From IMG/VR virus record IMGVR_UViG_3300025317_000002, positions 19,117-83,116 of that record: 64,000 nucleotides of DNA; one strand, given 5' to 3'. Every line of letters begins with the position of its first letter. The stretch's first letter is position 1. Shown in pieces: positions 15,253-52,727 of the stretch. The position numbers were made by a program, and so were the translations under genes. The notes under the pieces are model-generated. The model was not told the origin of the DNA, made no database searches, and worked only from the letters and a program-made list of their open reading frames with translations. This stretch comes from a virus.

Positions 15253-15320
15253 GGGCCGGATACCTCGACGGAGGGAAAAGTCAGAACCCTACTGGCCTTT
15301 CGGCCCTAAAAACATAGGGC
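15253..15320 (+). ncRNA. structured cis-RNA (three-way junction with possible pseudoknot) leading the GIY-YIG gene
   Basis: P1 GGGCCGGA/TTCGGCCC; P2 CCTC-GACG-GAGG; P3 GTCAG/CTGGC with loop AACCCTA complementary to downstream TAGGG. Confidence 0.55.
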
Positions 15321-15333
15321 TCATCAAAGGGAG

Positions 15334-16431
15334 ATGAAAATGCAGCAGATATATCTATACGCACTAAGTGATGATTTAGAACCTGAGAATTACAGATACA
15401 TCGGAATAACGAAAAATCCCCATCAAAGGCTCCAGAAACATCTCTTGGAAGTGAAAAGGGACTTGAAGACTTATAAGACAGATTGGATACGAAAGACCAT
15501 TACAAATGGTTCAAACTTAAAAATGACTATTATCGAAGCACATACTGACTCTGATCAGGCAAAGCAACGTGAGCGTGAACTAATTGCTCTATACAAAGAA
15601 AGAGGCTATCGTCTTACGAATGCTACTGAAGGAGGAGATGGAATTTCAAATCCCTCTATGGAAATCCGCAAAAAGATAGGAGATGGAAATAGAGGAAAGG
15701 TTATGTCTCCAGAAGCTCGCTTAAAGATTGGTTTGGCTAGTATAGGAAGAAAACGCACTCCTGAAGCAAACGCAAGAATAGGCTTAGCTCATAGAGGAAA
15801 AACTATTTCTCTAGAAGCAAGAAAGAAAATGAGCGAAGCTCATAAAGGGAAGTCTCTATCTGAGGAACACAAGCGACACATCCGAGAAGCTCGAGAAAAC
15901 ATGTCTCCGGAGATGAAAGAGAAAATACGACTTAAACAGGTAGAGGCATTAAAAAATAGAGTCATAACTCAGGAAACCAGAGAAAAAATGAGACAGGCTC
16001 GTTTAGGCAGAAAATTCTCTGAGGAGACTAGAACTAAACTATCGAGAGCTAAGCAGGGTCGAAAACTTTCTGAAGAGACAAGAAAGAAAATGAGTGAGGT
16101 CCAAAGGAAAATTCAATCTCCTGAACGTAGCTTACGAATAAGCTCAAAGCTTAAAGGACAAAAGCGGTCTTCAGAATTTTGTCAACGGATGAGCCAAGCT
16201 CGTAGAGGTAAAATAAAAGTTGACTTAACAGGTCAAACGTTTACTCGTCTAACTGTGATTAAGTTGGACTCAATAACTAAAGATGGGCATACTCGTTGGT
16301 TATGTCAATGCAGTTGCGGAAATCAGAAAGTGGTTTGCCGTTGTAATTTACTCAAGGGAGGTATAAAAGGATGCGGATGCTTATTGAAGGAAACTAACGA
16401 AAATCGTAGGAAGGTGAAAAATGAGCAATAG
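15334..16431 (+). CDS. free-standing GIY-YIG homing endonuclease with NUMOD3 repeats
   Basis: 'IYLYAL...YRYIGIT..P..RL..H', 'LTNATEGGDG', repeated 'S.E.R.KMS.A.KG', C-terminal 'W.CQCSCG...GCGC'. Confidence 0.9.
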   Translation: MKMQQIYLYALSDDLEPENYRYIGITKNPHQRLQKHLLEVKRDLKTYKTDWIRKTITNGSNLKMTIIEAHTDSDQAKQRERELIALYKERGYRLTNATEGGDGISNPSMEIRKKIGDGNRGKVMSPEARLKIGLASIGRKRTPEANARIGLAHRGKTISLEARKKMSEAHKGKSLSEEHKRHIREARENMSPEMKEKIRLKQVEALKNRVITQETREKMRQARLGRKFSEETRTKLSRAKQGRKLSEETRKKMSEVQRKIQSPERSLRISSKLKGQKRSSEFCQRMSQARRGKIKVDLTGQTFTRLTVIKLDSITKDGHTRWLCQCSCGNQKVVCRCNLLKGGIKGCGCLLKETNENRRKVKNEQ

Positions 16432-34132: not shown

Positions 34133-35119
34133 TCAGAATGCAATAATAGTTTCAGAGGCAACCAGAAACTGAAACAACCTCGCCATACCAAGCCCAGCTC
34201 CGGATCTTGGATAATATCCCTGCTCAAAAAGCTCGAGATAGGGCTCAAAGTAACAAAGCACACGATCAGGATTAAAGCCCTTCTCTGATGCCAAATCTTT
34301 TAAGTGCAAGAGCATTGGAGAATCAAGAAGCTTCTCTCTCAAGATCCTTGAATCTGGTTCTCGCTCCGACCCACCAATTGTCTCTCCAGGTCCAACCTTA
34401 TCTGTTTCTGCTTCTCCAGGGAGGAGCAGATCGACGCAATCCACTTCACCTTTGTGCTCAAGAGATCTAGAACGCCTCATATTCCAGAACTTGATGCTTT
34501 CCGGGTAATGTGTGACCTGAACGATGCCATAAGTCTGAGTAAGAATGTTTTCCGCTTTGGCGTCGAGATCATCTCCATATTCAAGTTCAAAGCACTTGTC
34601 TTTCAGAGTTTGGATCGCCTCCTTGTAAGTGATTCTGGAAAATCCTCTTCTCCAGTGAGTATAGAGGGACCAATGCTGCCTTCTATTCAGAAGCTTGGAT
34701 CTTAGCACTCCTTGAATCACATAAGCAAGAAGATCTTCGTTGTAGTTCAGAAGATGTTCCAGATTTCCATCCAGGAATTCATACTCAATGAGTTCAAACT
34801 CCGTTTTATGGCGCCCGTCATCCCATTTACGCTCCTTCCTGAAGGATCTCCCTATGATATAGGCTCTGGATAAGCCACTACTCACCAGAAAATGTTCCAT
34901 ATCGAGCTGGCCAGTCTGACGTAGAATAGAAAATTCAGAACCACTCTCCACATAGAACAAATTAGCTACTACCTCGCACCCTCCAGAGATATTGACAATC
35001 TCGTTCAGGAATAGCTTCAGAAAGCCCTTGGAGTCCATCCACTCCTCAACCAGCTTCATGACATAGGCTTTAAGCTTTAGCTCATCCATAAGCGTCAAAC
35101 CAGAAAGCCCTACATTCAT
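34133..35119 (-). CDS. class II aminoacyl-tRNA synthetase-like protein (AsnRS/AspRS catalytic domain only)
   Basis: 'LRQTGQL', motif 2 'SFRKE...RHKTEFELIEYE', 'HYPESIKFWNM', 'DLLLPG...GETIGGSERE', motif 3 'SGAGLGMARL'; AGGAG RBS before ATG at 35119; no N-terminal OB fold. Confidence 0.85.
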   Translation of the reverse strand: MNVGLSGLTLMDELKLKAYVMKLVEEWMDSKGFLKLFLNEIVNISGGCEVVANLFYVESGSEFSILRQTGQLDMEHFLVSSGLSRAYIIGRSFRKERKWDDGRHKTEFELIEYEFLDGNLEHLLNYNEDLLAYVIQGVLRSKLLNRRQHWSLYTHWRRGFSRITYKEAIQTLKDKCFELEYGDDLDAKAENILTQTYGIVQVTHYPESIKFWNMRRSRSLEHKGEVDCVDLLLPGEAETDKVGPGETIGGSEREPDSRILREKLLDSPMLLHLKDLASEKGFNPDRVLCYFEPYLELFEQGYYPRSGAGLGMARLFQFLVASETIIAF

Positions 35120-35120
35120 A

Positions 35121-36230
35121 TTATTCTCCTTCCTCCTTGCAACGTTCCAACCAAATATAGCCACATCCTCCACATTTCCGGTGGAGATGCTCCCCCTTTA
35201 CTCCAAATTGTAGAGCACAAAGAGAACTTTCATCTACTCCCGCACAGTAAACCGAGGTCTTGATTCCGTCCCACCCACATTTTCCGCATGGAGTCCAATT
35301 CGATAAAGGGGGGAGATCAAGATTGTTGAGAAATACCATTCTCCAAGATAAAAGCCTTCGCCTCTTCTCCTCGTAGGAATGCCCATCCCATTTATCTGGA
35401 TAATTGGGAAGAAACTCAAAGAGATCCATATTACTCTCTTCGATTAACCAGCTTACTTGCCCATTAGGAAGTTTCATGTAAAGGCTAGAATACAAACCAG
35501 AGTTGGAAAGTTGACTGGGTAGGATATAAGTCCCATCGGTATTAGCTGCTTCCAAGATAGCTTCCTTGTATGTCTGGTAAGCCGTATAAGCATCCTCTTC
35601 TTTCTCGAAAGTGCCAATTATTTTCTTCTTCCCGCCAATACTGGCATAAGCTCGGTATCTGCTCCCGTGCAACTCATAACCTTTCCCTTCAAAGGCTCGG
35701 TTTAGCATCTGCCCACGCTTCGTGGCAAGCCGAAGGTTCTGTCTCGTATTATTTAGCGGATTTCTGTCTATATGATCTACGGTATAACCATCAGGAATGC
35801 CTCCAAACATTCGTTTGGCAATCTGCACATGAAGATACTCGTCTGTAGTATGGTTTCGCACATAGCCTTTGTGAATGACAAGAGGGGAGCAGATTCCTAC
35901 ATCACAAAGCGATACTTCAATCGAAACCTCTTCCTTTCCATCTGGGCTAACTACTCTAAGGGAGGTCGGAGTCCAATCTACCCCGCCTTCCTTTGTTCTT
36001 CTAGCTACTCCAGTCTCCCAGCCTAAAGATAAAACCAATCGGGACAAGAATGCCAGAATCGTATCTCGATCCCAGCTTAGCTCACCTCGCAATGCCTGAA
36101 AACTTACAGCTTCCTCTTTTTCTTCAGGCTTGACTTCCAAGAAAATCTCCTTGGGATGTGTGACTTGGCACATCACACAAAGTCCATCTTCTACAGCTTG
36201 AGCCCCATGACACATCTTACAAATGTCCAT
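35121..36230 (-). CDS. chimeric protein: WDGH-signature phage protein with in-frame HNH-AP2 endonuclease and terminal Zn ribbons
   Basis: HNH 'VDHIDRNPLNNTRQNLRLAT', AP2-like 'YRAYASIGGKKKIIGTFEKEEDAYTAY', then 'LPNGQVSW...YPDKWDGHSYEEKRRRL'. Confidence 0.75.
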   Translation of the reverse strand: MDICKMCHGAQAVEDGLCVMCQVTHPKEIFLEVKPEEKEEAVSFQALRGELSWDRDTILAFLSRLVLSLGWETGVARRTKEGGVDWTPTSLRVVSPDGKEEVSIEVSLCDVGICSPLVIHKGYVRNHTTDEYLHVQIAKRMFGGIPDGYTVDHIDRNPLNNTRQNLRLATKRGQMLNRAFEGKGYELHGSRYRAYASIGGKKKIIGTFEKEEDAYTAYQTYKEAILEAANTDGTYILPSQLSNSGLYSSLYMKLPNGQVSWLIEESNMDLFEFLPNYPDKWDGHSYEEKRRRLLSWRMVFLNNLDLPPLSNWTPCGKCGWDGIKTSVYCAGVDESSLCALQFGVKGEHLHRKCGGCGYIWLERCKEEGE

Positions 36231-49214: not shown

Positions 49215-49780
49215 TCCTTTCGAAGCGAAATTCTTGTTGGAACTTTCTTCATACGTAACCCCTCTTGAAACAATTCTTCTCCTAGATACTTGAGAGATAA
49301 CGCTCTAGTTTTTTCGTCTTGAGTTACGATCCACCAGGCTGCTTCTCCTTTACGCTCTATTCCAGATCGATATTTCTGAATAACGTTTGCAACATACTTT
49401 TCAGAGGCACCAGTCTCCTTAAGCTTTTCCAGAAGCTCTGGATAAGTAATACCTTCCAAAAGAAGCTCATGGATCTTAAAGACCGTTGTCCCTTCTCCAA
49501 ATGGATTTACTGGAATCTGACTTTGAACTTGAGAAGAACTATCTGGAATCTGATGAATTACTCTTAAAATTGCACGGAGGAGATGTGCTGGAATTACTCC
49601 CTCTCTTCCGAGATCCATGCCAAGCGTGAGAGCAGCATGCTTTCCTTTTGGGAGATGGAGATCTCGCAATGCTCGAACAAGAAGATCCGATCTTCCCTTG
49701 TAATTAGATTCCAAACGAGAAATGATAGTATCTATTGTCGTTTTCATCTTTTGTTCCAAGGCTTGAATGCTTTGATCCAT
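49202..49780 (-). CDS. hypothetical protein
   Basis: ORF in operon; start uncertain (alternative ATG at 49747). Confidence 0.55.
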   Translation of the reverse strand: MDQSIQALEQKMKTTIDTIISRLESNYKGRSDLLVRALRDLHLPKGKHAALTLGMDLGREGVIPAHLLRAILRVIHQIPDSSSQVQSQIPVNPFGEGTTVFKIHELLLEGITYPELLEKLKETGASEKYVANVIQKYRSGIERKGEAAWWIVTQDEKTRALSLKYLGEELFQEGLRMKKVPTRISLRKEWLK

Positions 49781-50100
49781 TCCGTTGTGGGAAACGTTCC
49801 TTTAAAACAAAATGCTCTATCATCAATTGTAAGATGTGCTGGGAGCTTCTGAGTTGGAAAATCAAGCTTCTCAACGAGGGCACCATGCTTCTTAAGATAA
49901 ACAATCATAGCTGGGAGTCCCCTCTTGGAACAAGAACGACTGGAATAGATTGCCACATTAAAATGTTCAACCATCTCGCAGAGCCATTCGATTGTACCTG
50001 GAACAGGTAGACCTGGAATAGCAGCATTCCCAAGCCAATCTGGACTATAGTTATGCAAAACCGAATCAAAATCGCACAAAATAGTCTTTCTAAATGACAT
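49744..50100 (-). CDS. HAD-superfamily phosphatase / nucleotidase-like protein
   Basis: 'ILCDFDSVLH', 'IYSSR', 'K.PA...IDDRA'. Confidence 0.8.
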   Translation of the reverse strand: MSFRKTILCDFDSVLHNYSPDWLGNAAIPGLPVPGTIEWLCEMVEHFNVAIYSSRSCSKRGLPAMIVYLKKHGALVEKLDFPTQKLPAHLTIDDRAFCFKGTFPTTEWIKAFKPWNKR

Positions 50101-50126
50101 AATTCATCCTTTCTCTAGAGAAATAA

Positions 50127-50246
50127 ATCTCCCTAACTTGACAATGCATTGTCAAGCTAAGAATTGATATAAATGAAAGTATGGGAAACGAATCATAGAA
50201 CCCACACTTTTCTTAGCTTGGCTTGATTTATATCAATTCTGGGAGA
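50127..50246 (-). ncRNA. long bulged hairpin A
   Basis: Perfect 15-bp arms 50160-50174/50226-50240; inner stem AAAGTGTGGG/CCCATACTTT; outer ATCTCCC/GGGAGAT; 20-bp palindrome 50137-50156. Confidence 0.55.
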
Positions 50247-50358
50247 TGGCGACAGCAAGAGGAATCGAACCTCACTCACCTGGTCCCCCAGATGAAGCCA
50301 CCAGACTAGACAAAATCTTTGGCTCCGGAGCTACTTGATTTTGCCTTGTGCTGCTGCC
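50247..50358 (-). ncRNA. tRNA-like RNA 3 (112 nt, 8/4 acceptor/T geometry, GCCA end, non-canonical lower half)
   Basis: GGCAGCAG/TTGCTGTC acceptor; GAGG-TTCGATT-CCTC T-arm; two internal hairpins in place of D and anticodon arms. Confidence 0.7.
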
Positions 50359-50488
50359 TTTGTGCAGGCACGCCGACCTGCGTCACCCGTCAATTGAAAA
50401 CGTAAACATAAGTCAGAACAGGGAAACCTGACTTTATTGTTTGACATTCCTGGATTTGGTAGTCCAGGTAGGCACACCTTGTGCCTAG

Positions 50489-50628
50489 AGGCAGCCTCCG
50501 GAGTCGAACCGACCTTGATTTGTTTAGACACGTTTAATCAAAGGGTAAGCCTGCTTTCTCGCAGCCGAATTCATGTCCGCCTCAGATTCTAAAGTCAGCA
50601 GGTATTTGCCCCATGCTCCCAGGCTGCC
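50489..50628 (-). ncRNA. tRNA-like RNA 2 (140 nt, 8/4 geometry, expanded central arm and long variable-like arm)
   Basis: GGCAGCCT/AGGCTGCC acceptor; TCGG-TTCGACT-CCGG T-arm; CCTGCT/AGCAGG and CTTTGATT/AATCAAGG stems; followed by TCTA rather than NCCA. Confidence 0.65.
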
Positions 50629-50632
50629 AAAA

Positions 50633-50710
50633 TCTCTCATGCTTGAGAACCAAAAGTAGCTAGGGGTAAGATATTCTTATGGGTAACATATCTTCTGTAA
50701 GCATGAGAGA
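50633..50710 (-). ncRNA. long bulged hairpin B
   Basis: TCTCTCATGCTT/AAGCATGAGAGA 12 bp; inner AAGATAT/ATATCTT. Confidence 0.5.
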
Positions 50711-50726
50711 ATTCGTTCAAATCAAA

Positions 50727-50842
50727 TTCCCTTATCATCTGTCGAAGTGAAGGTAAGAGCTTCTAGGTTGTTTTGGGGGACCTTACCTTCCTTACTTCGT
50801 CTCAAACCACCATCCGCGAAACTACGACTGATGATAAGGAAA
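50727..50842 (-). ncRNA. long bulged hairpin C
   Basis: CCTTATCATC/GATGATAAGG, CGAAGT/ACTTCG and GAAGGTAAG/CTTACCTTC stems. Confidence 0.55.
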
Positions 50843-50911
50843 TGGTGGGGATGTCAGGATTCGAACCTGATAAGGCCTAGACATGTCTCCCGTTCCAACA
50901 GTGTCATCCCC
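50843..50911 (-). ncRNA. tRNA-like RNA 1 (69 nt, ACCA end, no anticodon loop)
   Basis: GGGGATG/CATCCCC acceptor; TCAGG-TTCGAAT-CCTGA T-arm; mini D-like hairpin CTGT-TGGA-ACGG; palindromic AGACATGTCT where the anticodon arm should be. Confidence 0.7.
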
Positions 50912-50948
50912 CATATTTACTACCAACAAACCGGACACTTGATACTCA

Positions 50949-52727
50949 TCAAACAACGATCTCTGACGCCCCATTTACCTTTCTGACATGCCAGATAACT
51001 GGAATGGAGCTTTTCACAATAGGATTGTGGGAAGTGAGAATCACAGTATCATCAAAGTATCTCAGGATATAAGAGAGAATGCTTTGAATTCCTTCTGGAT
51101 CAAGCGTATCTAAGACCTCATCTAGAAATAAGAAGGGCAACTCGACTCCCGCTCGGAGTGCAAACTCTCTTAGAGAAAGCTGAACCATGAGATCGACTCT
51201 CCGTTCTTCCCCAGAAGAGAGAGATTTATAGAGATTCTCCTCCCCATCTATGAGAATCGAGATCTTTTCCCTCTGGGCACCGCTTTTGAGACTGGTTGTT
51301 GATTGAAGCGAGACAAGAAACGTTTGAAGCTCCTGGGAAAGAGTCTTCAGGAATCCATTCAGAAATTCAATCGAGCTATCCAGCATATAGCTTCTAATAT
51401 TGATAAAGCACTCTTTGACGTAAGACATAAGGTCCACAGACCTACTCAAAGACTCTTTCTCAGATTTCAGAGCTTGAATTACGTTTTCTTTCTCGGTCAA
51501 CTTAGCTTGAAGCTTCAGTTTAAGTTCTATAAACTCTGTCTTCTTGGAATTGTCTTGAAGAGATTTTTGCTTCAGACTAAGTTCTGTTCTAAGGCTCGTA
51601 ACCTTAGCCAAAGCTTCTTGATACAATATCTCGTCTTCTCGCATTTTGAAGGTATGCCCATCAATCTTTTGTTCCAAGATTCTCAACTCTTGAAGGAACA
51701 CGGCACTCTTTTGCAGAAGCATACTTTCCGATCTAATACATGTTTCAAGCTCAAAAGCAAGTTCCGCAACAAGCTTGGTTTGATTCTCCGGAGTAAGGGA
51801 TGCCCCACAAACCAGGCAAGTTTTGTTTTCCAGGAGTCTAGCTCGCTTCTTCTCTAAGACTTCCACCTTAGATTTTGCCTTTTGTGCATCTTGCAAGGAT
51901 GTGTTAGACATTCGTTCGGAAAGGCTCTTCTTTCGGAAGAGAATTTCCCACTCCTCCTGAAATGCTTTTCTTTGAGCTGATCTATCTTTCAGAGTTAATT
52001 CTGCAAGGTTTAGCTCTGCTTTGAGCTTATCTATTTCTTCAAAGAGCAGTTCCCGTTCAGAAGACATAACACTTCTAAGCTTTGCCTCAAGTTCCTCCAG
52101 ATGTAACTGTGCTTCTTTGGCCTCTACCTCCAGAAGCTCAAGTTTCCTGAGAACTGAAGACATAAGCTCGGATTTCTCCTCCAACATCTCCTTGGATTTC
52201 AGGATAAGTCGATCATAGATGGTGAGGCCCAAGATAAATTCCAAGGTCTCTTTCCTCATTTGGTCGGTGAGACCGGAAAACCTCCAGTTTACCTTGTTCG
52301 AGATGAAGGAAAGTTGAAAGAGTAGATCCGGATGCGTCCGAACGAGACGCCGAATGAGATCATTTGTCAGCGTCGCAGTATCCAAGGAGAGATCTTGAGG
52401 AGGTTCGCTGCCCACATCAAAGAACGTAACGCCATGCTTGATAAAACCATTGGATGAAGCTTTTCCGCGAAAGCGATTGACCTGGTAACGAGAATTACCC
52501 TTCTCAAAGAAAAGAACTACTTCAGAATTAAATTCCCCTCGGTGGAGAATGTCGTTTCCTGAGATGCCCTTGGAAGTAACCCCAAAGAGAGAATAAGGAA
52601 CAAGATCAAGAAGATTGCTTTTTCCTTCCCCATTCTTTCCAGAAAGCAAGATTACACTCCGAGGGAAATCCAAAGAGATCTCCTTAAAAGACATAAAGTT
52701 TGTGGCTGAGACAGATCCTATCCGCAA
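50949..52727 (-). CDS. sbcC: SbcC/Rad50/gp46-like SMC ATPase
   Basis: Walker A 'GKNGEGKS', coiled coil with CxxC hook 'CLVCG', signature 'LSSGE', Walker B 'LFLDE'. Confidence 0.92.
   Translation of the reverse strand: MRIGSVSATNFMSFKEISLDFPRSVILLSGKNGEGKSNLLDLVPYSLFGVTSKGISGNDILHRGEFNSEVVLFFEKGNSRYQVNRFRGKASSNGFIKHGVTFFDVGSEPPQDLSLDTATLTNDLIRRLVRTHPDLLFQLSFISNKVNWRFSGLTDQMRKETLEFILGLTIYDRLILKSKEMLEEKSELMSSVLRKLELLEVEAKEAQLHLEELEAKLRSVMSSERELLFEEIDKLKAELNLAELTLKDRSAQRKAFQEEWEILFRKKSLSERMSNTSLQDAQKAKSKVEVLEKKRARLLENKTCLVCGASLTPENQTKLVAELAFELETCIRSESMLLQKSAVFLQELRILEQKIDGHTFKMREDEILYQEALAKVTSLRTELSLKQKSLQDNSKKTEFIELKLKLQAKLTEKENVIQALKSEKESLSRSVDLMSYVKECFINIRSYMLDSSIEFLNGFLKTLSQELQTFLVSLQSTTSLKSGAQREKISILIDGEENLYKSLSSGEERRVDLMVQLSLREFALRAGVELPFLFLDEVLDTLDPEGIQSILSYILRYFDDTVILTSHNPIVKSSIPVIWHVRKVNGASEIVV

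What the first reader, a model, noticed from the sequence alone, without database searches (positions are those of the whole stretch)
50127..50911. ~790-nt structured non-coding array: three non-canonical tRNA-like RNAs alternating with long hairpins
Seen on the - strand, 5' to 3': tRNA-like 1, hairpin C, hairpin B, tRNA-like 2, four small hairpins, tRNA-like 3, hairpin A. Each tRNA-like unit has a clean acceptor stem and a TTCGA T-loop, but the three lower halves differ from each other and none is a normal cloverleaf. A hairpin starts immediately after each 3' end. This is the only long ORF-free stretch in the window. Known: RNase P, RNase Z, CCA enzyme and EF-Tu read the acceptor/T half, and phages carry large ncRNAs (GOLLD, ROOL), Y RNAs and tmRNAs near tRNAs. 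Inference: either tRNA mimics/decoys, or tRNA-like punctuation that lets host nucleases release cargo small RNAs, or one new large ncRNA.
Basis: partly seen in the sequence, partly recalled or inferred. Interest (0 to 1): 0.85.

Follow-up and report, generated by a model that had tools for sequence, protein, structure and literature searches.

The report
Anticodon-less tRNA-shaped RNA array in phage
An uncultured groundwater phage carries, in its one long gene-free gap, three RNAs that keep the top half of a tRNA but have no codon-reading arm, each followed by long hairpins; they resemble the decades-old, still unexplained stable RNAs of phages T5 and T4.

Summary
The 848-nt gap at 50101-50948 is the only long ORF-free stretch in the window. 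Its minus strand carries exactly three units with a 12-bp acceptor/T branch and a UUCGA T-loop: 7/5, 8/4 and 8/4. No such cluster appeared in 300 shuffles. Long closed hairpins follow each unit.

None is a decoding tRNA:
- ARAGORN finds nothing and Rfam gives no match near threshold.
- No single-intron removal rescues units 1 or 3.

The closest known things are the annotated stable RNAs of T5, where tRNA-like RNA1 and RNA2 are directly followed by ~105-nt closed hairpin RNAs, and T4 species 1 RNA. Their roles are unknown. Homology to T4 rnaC was tested with a covariance model and not found.

Units 2 and 3 have the 8/4 geometry, variable-arm hairpin and U73/G73 of allo-tRNAs, but no anticodon.

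The phage has no close relatives. I have no covariation and no expression data.

This scan has noted similar arrays on other phage DNA.

Verdict: a real, modular, tRNA-framed ncRNA array; a new variant of a known but unexplained kind.

The parts
50843..50911 (-). Unit 1. 69-nt tRNA-like RNA: 7-bp acceptor (50911-50905 with 50853-50847), 5-bp T arm (50870-50854), A73 and encoded CCA. A 34-nt core replaces the D arm, anticodon arm and variable loop.
   Evidence: Scanner hit. Constrained fold -20.2 against MFE -21.9 kcal/mol. Best Rfam match is tRNA-Sec at 18.8 bits (cut-off 47), with tmRNA_permuted at 18.6. ARAGORN calls it only at 70% of its threshold.
50726..50843 (-). Hairpin C: Y-shaped closed hairpin that starts at the last base of unit 1.
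   Evidence: Minus strand -38.7 (z -3.1); plus strand -43.7 (z -5.9). Inverted repeat I2 is 87% complementary over 23 nt.
50629..50714 (-). Hairpin B: long closed hairpin that ends 1 nt before unit 2.
   Evidence: Minus strand -24.6 (z -4.7); plus strand -26.7 (z -4.0). Repeat I5.
50489..50628 (-). Unit 2. 140-nt tRNA-like RNA: 8-bp acceptor (50628-50621 with 50497-50490), 4-bp T stem, T loop 50508-50502, discriminator U, no CCA. It has a D-arm-like hairpin (4-bp stem, 13-nt loop), about 52 nt of middle insert, and a variable-arm-like hairpin 1 nt before the T stem.
   Evidence: Scanner. Constrained fold -43.7 against MFE -46.3. Its 5' part resembles the unit in L072/L083.
50359..50487 (-). 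Spacer with four small hairpins: 50487-50469, 50468-50449, 50448-50399 and about 50392-50363.
   Evidence: Minus strand -43.6 (z -3.2); plus strand -37.9 (z -1.6).
50247..50358 (-). Unit 3. 112-nt tRNA-like RNA: 8-bp acceptor with 2 G-U pairs (50358-50351 with 50258-50251), 4-bp T stem, T loop 50269-50263, G73 and encoded CCA. Inside are a 10-bp rod arm, a 4-bp mini-hairpin, and an 8-bp arm capped by a GNRA-type tetraloop 2 nt before the T stem.
   Evidence: Scanner. Folds (z -3.2). An alternative longer form starts near 50388.
50127..50247 (-). Hairpin A: three-way closed hairpin that starts at the last base of unit 3. Its last arm (50163-50130), with the T-rich tail to about 50120, looks like an intrinsic terminator just before the ribosome-binding site of the 118-aa gene.
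   Evidence: -46.5, z -9.1. Terminator-like site. A competing perfect 11-nt pairing joins 50220-50210 with 50163-50153 (I9).
50949..52727 (-). Upstream gene, SbcC/Rad50-like ATPase. No sigma-70-like promoter was found between it and unit 1 on the minus strand.
   Evidence: Pfam AAA_23, SMC_N and Rad50 zinc hook. Promoter scan.
49744..50100 (-). Downstream 118-aa gene.
   Evidence: ORF list. Weak PHROG hits only.

Best explanation
The gap encodes a row of separate structured RNAs read from the minus strand.

How it is probably made. It is most likely transcribed by read-through from the SbcCD operon and stopped, at least in part, at the terminator-like arm of hairpin A. The three units keep only what tRNA-maturation enzymes read: a 12-bp acceptor/T branch with a standard T-loop, and in two of three an encoded CCA. 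I infer that host RNase P cuts at each unit's 5' end, and that the tRNA 3'-end machinery trims or cuts at each 3' end. This would free three stable, tRNA-shaped RNAs that cannot decode, plus the closed hairpin RNAs between them. That matches the layout of the annotated stable RNAs in the T5 tRNA region (RNA1 then RNAI then RNAIII; RNA2 then RNAIV).

What the products do. This is unknown, as it is for T5 and T4. My best guess is that the tRNA frame serves two purposes. It is a processing and stability chassis for the variable inner modules, and its free acceptor ends may occupy host factors that act on tRNA acceptor ends.

Shown: the anatomy, its non-randomness, that the units are not canonical tRNAs, and the likeness of layout to T5 and T4.
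Inferred: transcription, processing, stability and function.
For: - Three units and only three in 83 kb, all on one strand within 0.7 kb. In 300 shuffles, none had two or more within 1 kb.
- All three have exactly 12 bp in the acceptor branch although it is split 7/5, 8/4 and 8/4. The allo-tRNA paper says EF-Tu recognises this 12-bp branch (passage read).
- The acceptor stems have no mismatch, while the inner parts are replaced by other well-paired helices: a 10-bp rod and an 8-bp arm with a GNRA-type loop in unit 3.
- The structure is modular: pairs limited to 150 nt keep -279.6 of -289.8 kcal/mol.
- The hairpins are far more stable than shuffles, with z from -3.1 to -9.1.
- Hairpins begin 0-2 nt after each unit's end.
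- There is a terminator-like site at the 3' end.
- T5 annotation lists RNA1 (144 nt) and RNA2 (125 nt) as 'tRNA-like stable RNA with unknown functions'. They are directly followed by RNAI, RNAIII and RNAIV (103-107 nt), which fold as closed branched hairpins.
- The T4 rnaC family folds as acceptor-like stem, long rod, hairpin and T arm, with 13 of 43 pairs showing compensatory change.
- These known RNAs also escape Rfam: T5 RNA1 scores 24 bits, RNA2 and RNA3 give nothing, and T4 rnaC scores 17.5 bits to tRNA-Sec.
- Other phage and metagenome loci hold un-called long tRNA-like units.
Against: - No RNA evidence of any kind.
- No relatives. The flanking proteins find none in viral contigs. The nearest SbcC homologues are 23% identical. 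The four distant SbcC loci carry no such unit (0 of 4). So covariation cannot be tested.
- Four other runs hold only identical sequence.
- No promoter was found.
- The 83-kb record holds no canonical tRNA, unlike the T4 and T5 clusters. CheckV estimates the record as 39% complete.
- The T4 rnaC model does not recognise the units: best 12.2 bits, E about 0.6.
- The tRNA-like fold is not the MFE of any unit. Mean pair probability of the acceptor and T pairs is 0.63, 0.64 and 0.32.
- Hairpins B and C fold as well or better on the plus strand.
Confidence: 0.55

Rival explanations
1. Cis-acting structured spacer. The hairpins, above all hairpin A with its terminator and a competing pairing, control read-through or mRNA stability between the SbcCD operon and the downstream genes. 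The tRNA-like units serve only as cleavage or stability signals for the flanking mRNAs.
For: Terminator-like arm with a T-run just before the next gene's ribosome-binding site. A perfect 11-nt alternative pairing overlaps the terminator's 5' arm (I9). All neighbouring genes are on the same strand. No separate promoter was found.
Against: About 850 nt with three full acceptor/T units is far more than a terminator or attenuator needs. An 11-nt perfect inverted repeat in 950 nt is expected by chance about once in ten tries (my estimate). No known riboswitch or leader family matches.
Confidence: 0.15
2. Decaying tRNA genes: remains of a former tRNA cluster without function.
For: No expression or conservation data. 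Unit 1 is called tRNA-Asp(GUC) by ARAGORN at 70% of its threshold. The 3' half of unit 1 matches ordinary tRNA-Tyr, Val, Met and Leu genes of many phyla: 39 loci found, 20 examined.
Against: The acceptor stems have no mismatch (7, 8 and 8 bp) and the T arms are intact, while the centres are replaced by new, well-paired helices rather than eroded ones. All three keep a 12-bp branch. Phage genomes seldom keep 850 nt of dead DNA; the other gaps here are 290 nt or less.
Confidence: 0.1
3. DNA-level element, such as a replication origin or recombination site made of inverted repeats inside the replication/recombination module.
For: It lies among SbcCD, a RuvC-like resolvase, RecA/UvsX-like, gp32-like and PolA genes. 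Both strands fold far better than shuffles.
Against: T-loop motifs and acceptor pairing occur on one strand only: 3 hits against 0. The minus strand folds 28 kcal/mol better overall. No iterons or tandem repeats were seen among the direct repeats.
Confidence: 0.07
4. Working decoder tRNAs of unusual build, with introns or extended arms.
For: Unit 2 contains a 7-nt stretch that some deletion variants let ARAGORN read as an anticodon loop; 28 of 5451 single-deletion variants are called. Irregular and 8/4 tRNAs exist in phages.
Against: - ARAGORN with the intron option finds nothing at default threshold.
- 0 of 160 variants of unit 1 and 0 of 2568 of unit 3 are called.
- The unit 2 calls need a roughly 60-nt deletion in the D region and give mixed anticodons.
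- The window reads as long ORFs under the standard code, so no suppressor is needed.
Confidence: 0.05
5. One large ncRNA of about 800 nt, of the GOLLD or ROOL kind, with tRNA-like domains.
For: The global MFE contains 29 pairs that span more than 200 nt. T5 has a 719-nt 'RNAX' next to a tRNA.
Against: Long-range pairs add only about 10 kcal/mol and vanish from the centroid. No Rfam large-RNA family matches.
Confidence: 0.05

Closest known systems
Phage T5 stable RNAs: RNA1, RNA2 and RNA3 (tRNA-like) with RNAI, RNAIII and RNAIV (GenBank AY543070 annotation)
   Same: - tRNA-like RNAs of 73-144 nt with acceptor and T arms but an expanded or altered middle.
- They are directly followed, 0-18 nt on, by closed branched hairpin RNAs of 103-107 nt.
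- They escape Rfam's tRNA cut-off.
- Their function is annotated as unknown.
   Different: - No sequence likeness: blastn of the gap against 50,697 phage records found nothing.
- The T5 RNAs sit among 20-odd canonical tRNAs; none is seen in this 83-kb record.
- T5 RNA1 keeps a normal D arm and a 7/5 branch; units 2 and 3 here are 8/4.
- The T5 RNAs are annotated as stable RNAs; nothing is known of expression here.
Phage T4 species 1 RNA (rnaC) and species 2 RNA (rnaD)
   Same: rnaC is 139 nt. It folds as acceptor-like closing stem, long rod arm, hairpin just before the T arm, and T arm. That is the same plan as units 3 and 2, at the same size. Its role is unknown (PMC3014915 passage; PMC12685909 passages).
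   Different: - A covariance model of the rnaC family (4 sequences) gives only 12.2 bits, E about 0.6, on the window, and that comes from unit 1's acceptor and T arm.
- rnaC has two conserved U-U mismatches in its closing stem and a 7/5-like branch.
- rnaC lies in the T4 tRNA cluster.
Allo-tRNAs and other 8/4 tRNAs (Mukai et al. 2017, PMC5389517; passages read)
   Same: An 8-bp acceptor with a 4-bp T stem giving a 12-bp branch, a long variable-arm hairpin, and discriminator G73 or U73. The paper reports them in soil and sediment bacteria and in phages, describes 'polycistrons of irregular tRNAs', and says some may be non-translating regulatory RNAs.
   Different: Allo-tRNAs have a real anticodon arm and decode in E. 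coli. Units 2 and 3 have no 5-6 bp stem with a 7-nt loop at that place. The allo-tRNA D arm (long stem, tetraloop) is not seen; unit 2 has a 4-bp stem with a 13-nt loop.
tmRNA tRNA-like domain
   Same: Unit 1 has an acceptor stem, a loop with G runs, a T arm and an ACCA end, and no anticodon arm. It gives a weak Rfam match to permuted tmRNA, 18.6 bits.
   Different: Position 3:70 is G-C, not G-U (read from the sequence). ARAGORN makes no tmRNA call. There is no messenger-like domain. The score is far below the cut-off of 47.
tRNA-like punctuation in eukaryotic systems: MHV68 TMERs and MALAT1 mascRNA (recalled, not tested)
   Same: As recalled: a non-decoding tRNA-like unit is cut by RNase P or RNase Z, and this frees the adjoining hairpin RNA or transcript end.
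   Different: Those are eukaryotic polymerase III or II transcripts and are unrelated in sequence. Here processing is only inferred.

Membership tests
Canonical tRNA (RF00005 / ARAGORN) | Called as a cloverleaf by ARAGORN at default settings | tested here: not met
   0 genes in the window. 0 in the gap with the tmRNA, intron and mitochondrial options. Weak calls appear only at 70-80% of the threshold.
Canonical tRNA (RF00005 / ARAGORN) | RF00005 score of 29 bits or more | tested here: not met
   No RF00005 match up to E = 10 in 49900-51100. 0 matches in the whole 83-kb record.
Canonical tRNA (RF00005 / ARAGORN) | 12-bp acceptor/T branch with a UUCRA T-loop | tested here: met
   7/5, 8/4 and 8/4.
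Canonical tRNA (RF00005 / ARAGORN) | 5-bp anticodon stem with a 7-nt loop, directly or after removal of one intron | tested here: not met
   Constrained folds. Deletion scan: unit 1, 0 of 160; unit 3, 0 of 2568; unit 2, 28 of 5451, all needing an implausible deletion in the D region.
Allo-tRNA (8/4 or 9/3) | 8/4 or 9/3 split of a 12-bp branch | tested here: met
   Units 2 and 3 are 8/4. Unit 2 can also be read as 7/5 with a G-A mismatch.
Allo-tRNA (8/4 or 9/3) | Long variable arm and G73 or U73 | tested here: met
   A hairpin lies 1-2 nt before the T stem in both units. The discriminators are U (unit 2) and G (unit 3). The criterion comes from the PMC5389517 passage.
Allo-tRNA (8/4 or 9/3) | Anticodon arm with an anticodon; decodes | tested here: not met
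tmRNA | Rfam or ARAGORN tmRNA call; G3-U70; tag reading frame | tested here: not met
   ARAGORN finds none. tmRNA_permuted scores 18.6 bits against a cut-off of 47. Position 3:70 of unit 1 is G-C. I did not search for a tag frame beyond ARAGORN.
T4 rnaC (species 1 RNA) family | Match to a covariance model of the family | tested here: not met
   Model R1, built from T4, IME523, KM16 and KaAlpha. T4 itself scores 158.7 bits; the best window match is 12.2 bits, E 0.57.
T4 rnaC (species 1 RNA) family | Plan: closing acceptor-like stem, long rod, hairpin before the T arm, T arm | tested here: met
   rnaC; units 3 and 2.
T5 tRNA-like stable RNAs with adjoining stable hairpin RNAs | tRNA-like unit immediately followed by closed hairpin RNAs of about 100 nt | tested here: met
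   T5 coordinates and folds. Window layout.
T5 tRNA-like stable RNAs with adjoining stable hairpin RNAs | Sequence homology | tested here: not met
   blastn (word size 11) of 50050-51000 against the phage collection gave no match. I built no T5-specific model.
T5/T4 stable RNAs | Accumulates as a stable processed RNA in infected cells | not testable with these tools
   No RNA run is listed for this DNA. The host is unknown.
Bacterial Y RNA / YrlA | Rfam match; Ro (TROVE) gene nearby | tested here: not met
   No Rfam match. None of the 30 ORFs scanned with Pfam is TROVE, RtcB or an RNA ligase.

The most novel reading that the evidence does not exclude
Units 2 and 3, and perhaps unit 1, are chargeable but non-decoding amino-acid carriers. 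They keep exactly the features that anticodon-blind charging needs: a 12-bp 8/4 branch, a variable-arm hairpin, G73 or U73, and a CCA end. They would be aminoacylated either by the host seryl-tRNA synthetase or by the phage's own AsnRS-like enzyme, which lacks the anticodon-binding domain (34133-35173). The charged product would then feed a non-ribosomal reaction, or tie up EF-Tu or host factors that attack tRNA acceptor ends. That would be a phage-run aminoacylation system uncoupled from the genetic code.
Probability: 0.07. Interest if true: 0.9.

Novelty: new variant of a known kind. Interest (0 to 1): 0.55.

Why it matters
Phages T4 and T5 have been known for decades to make stable tRNA-like RNAs whose role is still unknown (annotations).

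This locus shows the same design in a very distant, uncultured groundwater phage: a tRNA acceptor/T frame, no anticodon, and adjoining closed hairpins. Two things differ. The chassis is 8/4 and allo-tRNA-like, and the array lies outside any tRNA cluster.

Other un-called units turned up along the way, and earlier notes of this scan describe similar arrays. Together these suggest that non-decoding tRNA-framed RNAs are a recurrent phage device, not a T-phage oddity.

If so, the old question of what T4 species 1 RNA and the T5 RNAs do could be approached by comparison. It also raises a testable question: are such RNAs processed, CCA-tailed or even charged by host enzymes?

Tried and rejected
**Relatives of the phage**
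- The search for related loci with SbcC, the 118-aa protein and RecA found no relative in viral contigs.
- The search for homologous proteins with SbcC found only its own cluster plus two proteins at 23% identity.
- An alignment-based scan gave 4 distant loci. None of the 4 has a tRNA-like unit or an ARAGORN call near SbcC.
- The portal protein matches GenBank phages at 29% identity or less.

**Sequencing runs**
- No RNA holder is listed.
- Four DNA runs laid on 49400-51600 gave only identical pieces and no variants. Short 33-40-nt matches at 50838-50879 come from other organisms' tRNA T arms.

**Pattern scans**
- An acceptor/T pattern with long spacing gave 7 viral loci and 71 metagenome loci.
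- Of the 71 metagenome hits, 22 overlap ARAGORN calls, and none resembles unit 2 or 3 overall (normalised alignment score 0.21 or less).
- Only L072 and L083, which are one family (2 of 78 hits), share unit 2's D-arm-like hairpin.
- A scan of viral contigs for that motif gave 103 hits. All are coding repeats, and none of the 103 closes into a unit.

**Origin of unit 1**
- The exact 3' half has no match in 185,579 species genomes.
- With the T stem left free there are 39 loci. In the 20 I examined, the matches are tRNA-Tyr, Val, Met or Leu, or are un-called, so the sequence is not diagnostic.

**Other ideas dropped**
- No T4-type late-promoter word occurs in the record.
- A word shared by hairpins B and C (D4) sits in different structural contexts, so I treat it as chance.
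- A passing likeness of a 10-nt word in hairpin A to a recalled CRISPR repeat end was dropped, because no matching stem-loop is present.

**Literature**
Searches found no paper that describes anticodon-less tRNA-like arrays in phages beyond T4 and T5. The library lacks most subscription journals. Miller et al. 2003 is not held, and supplements were closed.

**Neighbouring proteins**
Pfam, PHROG and NCBIfam scans showed no RNA-processing enzyme.
Full report
**Setting.** The window is bases 19117-83116 of an 83,116-bp IMG/VR virus record that CheckV rates 39% complete. The same DNA is held by groundwater and soil metagenome runs. The gene content is that of a large tailed phage:
- T4-type portal, family A DNA polymerase with a UDG-like domain, gp32-like and RecA/UvsX-like proteins
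- SbcC and SbcD, a RuvC-like resolvase, deoxynucleoside and thymidylate kinases
- a class II aminoacyl-tRNA-synthetase core without an anticodon-binding domain

All genes from about 33 kb to 64 kb lie on the minus strand. The finding lies between the SbcC-like gene (50949-52727) and a 118-aa gene (49744-50100).

- With ORFs of 100 aa or more, the 848-nt gap at 50101-50948 is by far the longest uncovered stretch; the next is 290 nt.
- I wrote a scanner for the minimal tRNA top half. It looks for a UUCRA loop closed by at least 4 pairs, followed at once by a 7-9-nt strand that pairs (at most 2 G-U) with a strand 40-170 nt upstream, 12-13 pairs in all.
- Over the whole 83-kb record and both strands it returns exactly three hits, all on the minus strand and all in this gap: 50911-50847 (7/5), 50628-50490 (8/4) and 50358-50251 (8/4).
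- In 300 dinucleotide-preserving shuffles of the record, the mean was 0.57 hits, and no shuffle had two hits within 1 kb on one strand.
- All three branches have exactly 12 pairs.
- Units 1 and 3 encode ACCA and GCCA ends. Unit 2 has discriminator U and no CCA.
- The minus strand of the gap folds at -289.8 kcal/mol (z -5.45); the plus strand folds at -262.1 (z -3.92).
- With pairs limited to a span of 150 nt the minus strand still reaches -279.6. The stretch is therefore a row of local modules.
Hairpin C (50843-50726) and hairpin A (50247-50127) start at the last base of the CCA of units 1 and 3. The first small hairpin starts 2 nt after unit 2.
- Each hairpin block is much more stable than its shuffles: z -3.1, -4.7, -3.2 and -9.1.

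Two cautions apply. Hairpin C, and marginally hairpin B, fold as well or better as plus-strand RNA. For each unit the tRNA-like fold is 1.7-3.3 kcal/mol above the MFE.

**What the units are not.**
- *Canonical tRNAs.* ARAGORN finds no tRNA or tmRNA in the window. It finds none in the gap with its intron, tmRNA or mitochondrial options.
- *Any Rfam family.* At gathering thresholds Rfam finds only an unrelated int-alpA RNA at 15253-15319. A permissive scan of the gap gives nothing above 22 bits. The tRNA-related matches are tRNA-Sec at 18.8 bits and permuted tmRNA at 18.6 bits, both on unit 1, against cut-offs of 47. RF00005 finds nothing in the whole record.
- *tRNAs with one intron.* I removed every single segment of 5-99 nt in silico. 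None of 160 variants of unit 1 and none of 2568 of unit 3 became an ARAGORN tRNA. For unit 2, 28 of 5451 did, but only through a roughly 60-nt deletion in the D region and with mixed anticodons.

**Anatomy of the units** (constrained folds).
- *Unit 1* has only 34 nt between its acceptor and T stems. That leaves room for a small loop with G runs and a 13-nt linker, and no anticodon arm.
- *Unit 2* has a D-arm-like hairpin (4-bp stem, 13-nt loop), about 52 nt of further small helices, and a hairpin 1 nt before the T stem.
- *Unit 3* has a 10-bp rod topped by a small hairpin, a 4-bp mini-hairpin, and an 8-bp arm with a GNRA-type tetraloop 2 nt before the T stem.
- A hairpin at that last place is where type II tRNAs carry the variable arm.

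**Known things it resembles.** The earlier notes of this scan pointed to the stable RNAs of T5 and T4. I checked both myself.

*T4.*
- The GenBank record annotates rnaC (species 1 RNA, 139 nt) and rnaD next to tRNA-Arg.
- rnaC folds as a closing acceptor-like stem, a long rod, a hairpin and a standard T arm.
- Four family members give a consensus with 43 pairs, 13 of them with compensatory changes.
- A review states that the roles of RNAC and RNAD are unknown (PMC3014915, passage). A 2025 paper says the same (PMC12685909, passages).

*T5.*
- The record annotates RNA1 (144 nt) and RNA2 (125 nt) as 'tRNA-like stable RNA with unknown functions', and RNA3 (73 nt) as 'putative tRNA-like RNA'.
- RNA1 is followed without a gap by RNAI (107 nt), then RNAIII (106 nt), then tRNA-His. 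RNA2 is followed by RNAIV (103 nt).
- RNAI, RNAIII and RNAIV fold as branched hairpins closed by their own ends, like hairpins A and C here.

*Both.* These known RNAs are as invisible to Rfam as the units here. T5 RNA1 scores 24 bits to RF00005, RNA2 and RNA3 give nothing, and T4 rnaC scores 17.5 bits to tRNA-Sec.

The layout 'non-decoding tRNA-like unit, then closed hairpin RNAs' is therefore a known phage design.

**Membership by descent is a separate question, and it fails.**
- blastn of the gap against 50,697 phage records finds nothing.
- My covariance model of the rnaC family scores 158.7 bits on T4 but only 12.2 bits (E about 0.6) on unit 1. It finds nothing on units 2 and 3.
- T5 RNA1 scores no better against that model (13 bits). 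The three sets share a plan, not detectable ancestry.

**The 8/4 branch.**
- Mukai et al. (PMC5389517, passages read) describe allo-tRNAs with 8/4 or 9/3 branches, long variable arms and G73 or U73.
- They note that these elements are what seryl-tRNA synthetase needs.
- They report 8/4 tRNA-Ser and tRNA-His in phages, and 'polycistrons of irregular tRNAs' in soil metatranscriptomes.
- Units 2 and 3 meet the branch, variable-arm and discriminator criteria. They lack the anticodon arm, so they are not allo-tRNAs in the working sense.

**Relatives and look-alikes.** The phage is isolated.
- Three proteins find no relative in viral contigs.
- The nearest SbcC relatives are 23% identical.
- None of the four distant SbcC loci has a unit beside the gene.
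- Four other runs carry only identical sequence.

Pattern scans for the acceptor/T words of units 2 and 3 with long spacing gave 7 viral and 71 metagenome loci. Most are chance or ordinary tRNAs; 22 of the 71 overlap ARAGORN calls. Several are long, un-called tRNA-like units:
- a 108-nt one in a 253,664-bp complete phage, far from that phage's 37 tRNAs
- a 65-nt one (plus ACCA) with the same 34-nt core length as unit 1
- others from Hainich groundwater and soils

One family, L072/L083, shares with unit 2 the D-arm-like hairpin, beyond what the pattern imposed. The 4-bp stem, the 13-nt loop length and a 7-nt loop word are the same, and unit 3 shares part of this. In L083 that unit sits beside a tRNA-Ile and a 152-nt tRNA with a roughly 85-nt insert at the anticodon loop. 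This hints that units 2 and 3 belong to a wider 8/4 lineage. The family therefore stays at two independent members, too few for covariation.

**How it most likely works.**
- *Shown:* the anatomy, and the parallel with T5 and T4.
- *Established knowledge (recalled):* bacterial RNase P, the 3'-end enzymes, CCA-adding enzyme and EF-Tu read the acceptor/T half of a tRNA. For E. coli, the standard model of polycistronic tRNA processing is RNase E just after each CCA, RNase P at each 5' end, and exonucleases at the 3' end. I saw this in the abstract of PMC2190699 in a search listing.
- *Inferred:* the gap is transcribed with the SbcCD operon, since no sigma-70-like promoter was found on its strand. 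It is cut at the six unit borders. It ends, at least in part, at the terminator-like arm 50163-50130 with its T-rich tail.
- *Expected products:* three tRNA-shaped RNAs that cannot decode; a two-hairpin piece of about 215 nt; a piece of about 127 nt with small hairpins; and hairpin A.

What they do is open. I favour a chassis role for the tRNA frame (processing, stability, perhaps CCA tailing), together with occupation of host factors that act on acceptor ends. The cis-regulatory, pseudogene, DNA-element, odd-decoder and single-large-RNA readings are kept as rivals with the odds given.

**Novelty and score.**
- The kind is known from T5 and T4. This scan has noted similar arrays on other phage DNA. 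Those notes are unchecked AI notes, apart from the T5 and T4 points that I verified.
- New here: the 8/4 allo-like chassis without an anticodon, the position outside any tRNA cluster in a replication module, and the lineage.
- I could find no paper describing such arrays beyond T4 and T5 in the held library. One survey mentions tRNA-like candidate RNAs in IMG/VR in general terms (PMC10690425, passages). Supplements were closed and may list more.
- With neither conservation nor expression shown for this locus, I rate interest at 0.55.

Noticed in passing
window 15253-15319 (+): An int-alpA RNA (RF02996, 45.9 bits) lies directly upstream of a 365-aa ORF at 15334-16431. This suggests an integrase-type gene and a temperate lifestyle.
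   Followed up: no
window 34133-35173 (-): A class II synthetase core most like AsnRS. It aligns to residues 135-414 of 1x54, has no anticodon-binding domain, and in motif 3 has alanine where the aligned AsnRS has glutamate. It lies next to a deoxynucleoside kinase fused to an RNA-polymerase-alpha-CTD-like tail. It is 15 kb from the array, and no link between the two was shown.
   Followed up: partly
window 50153-50163 and 50210-50220: A perfect 11-nt pairing overlaps the 5' arm of the terminator-like hairpin (50163-50130). This could be a terminator/antiterminator pair in front of the 118-aa gene.
   Followed up: partly
L007 3463-3570 (-) = G001:128086-128193: A 108-nt un-called tRNA-like unit (7/5, ACCA) lies 21 nt behind a small gene in a complete 253,664-bp phage. 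It is 30 kb away from that phage's cluster of 37 tRNAs.
   Followed up: partly
L005 1014-1082 (+): A 65-nt tRNA plus ACCA whose anticodon arm is replaced by a 13-nt linker. Its 34-nt core is the same length as unit 1's. It lies in an ORF-free stretch of about 800 nt before a terminase gene. RF00005 scored it at 40 bits, but it was not listed.
   Followed up: partly
L083 2937-3884 (+): A metagenome contig with tRNA-Ile(UAU), a 120-nt 8/4 unit whose D-arm-like hairpin matches unit 2, and a 152-nt tRNA with a roughly 85-nt insert at the anticodon loop.
   Followed up: partly
L003 1911-2001 (-) (phage T4 rnaC): The 3' acceptor strand of T4 rnaC can also pair with an internal 7-mer, giving a 91-nt tRNA-like form. 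Unit 3 likewise has two possible 5' partners.
   Followed up: no
L047 1496-1520 (-), L037 5765-5789 (+), L053 7256-7280 (+): Bacterial genome loci with a T arm, acceptor 3' strand and ACCA, but no 5' partner within 220 nt and no ARAGORN call. In L047 a full tRNA 5' end follows 3 nt later.
   Followed up: no
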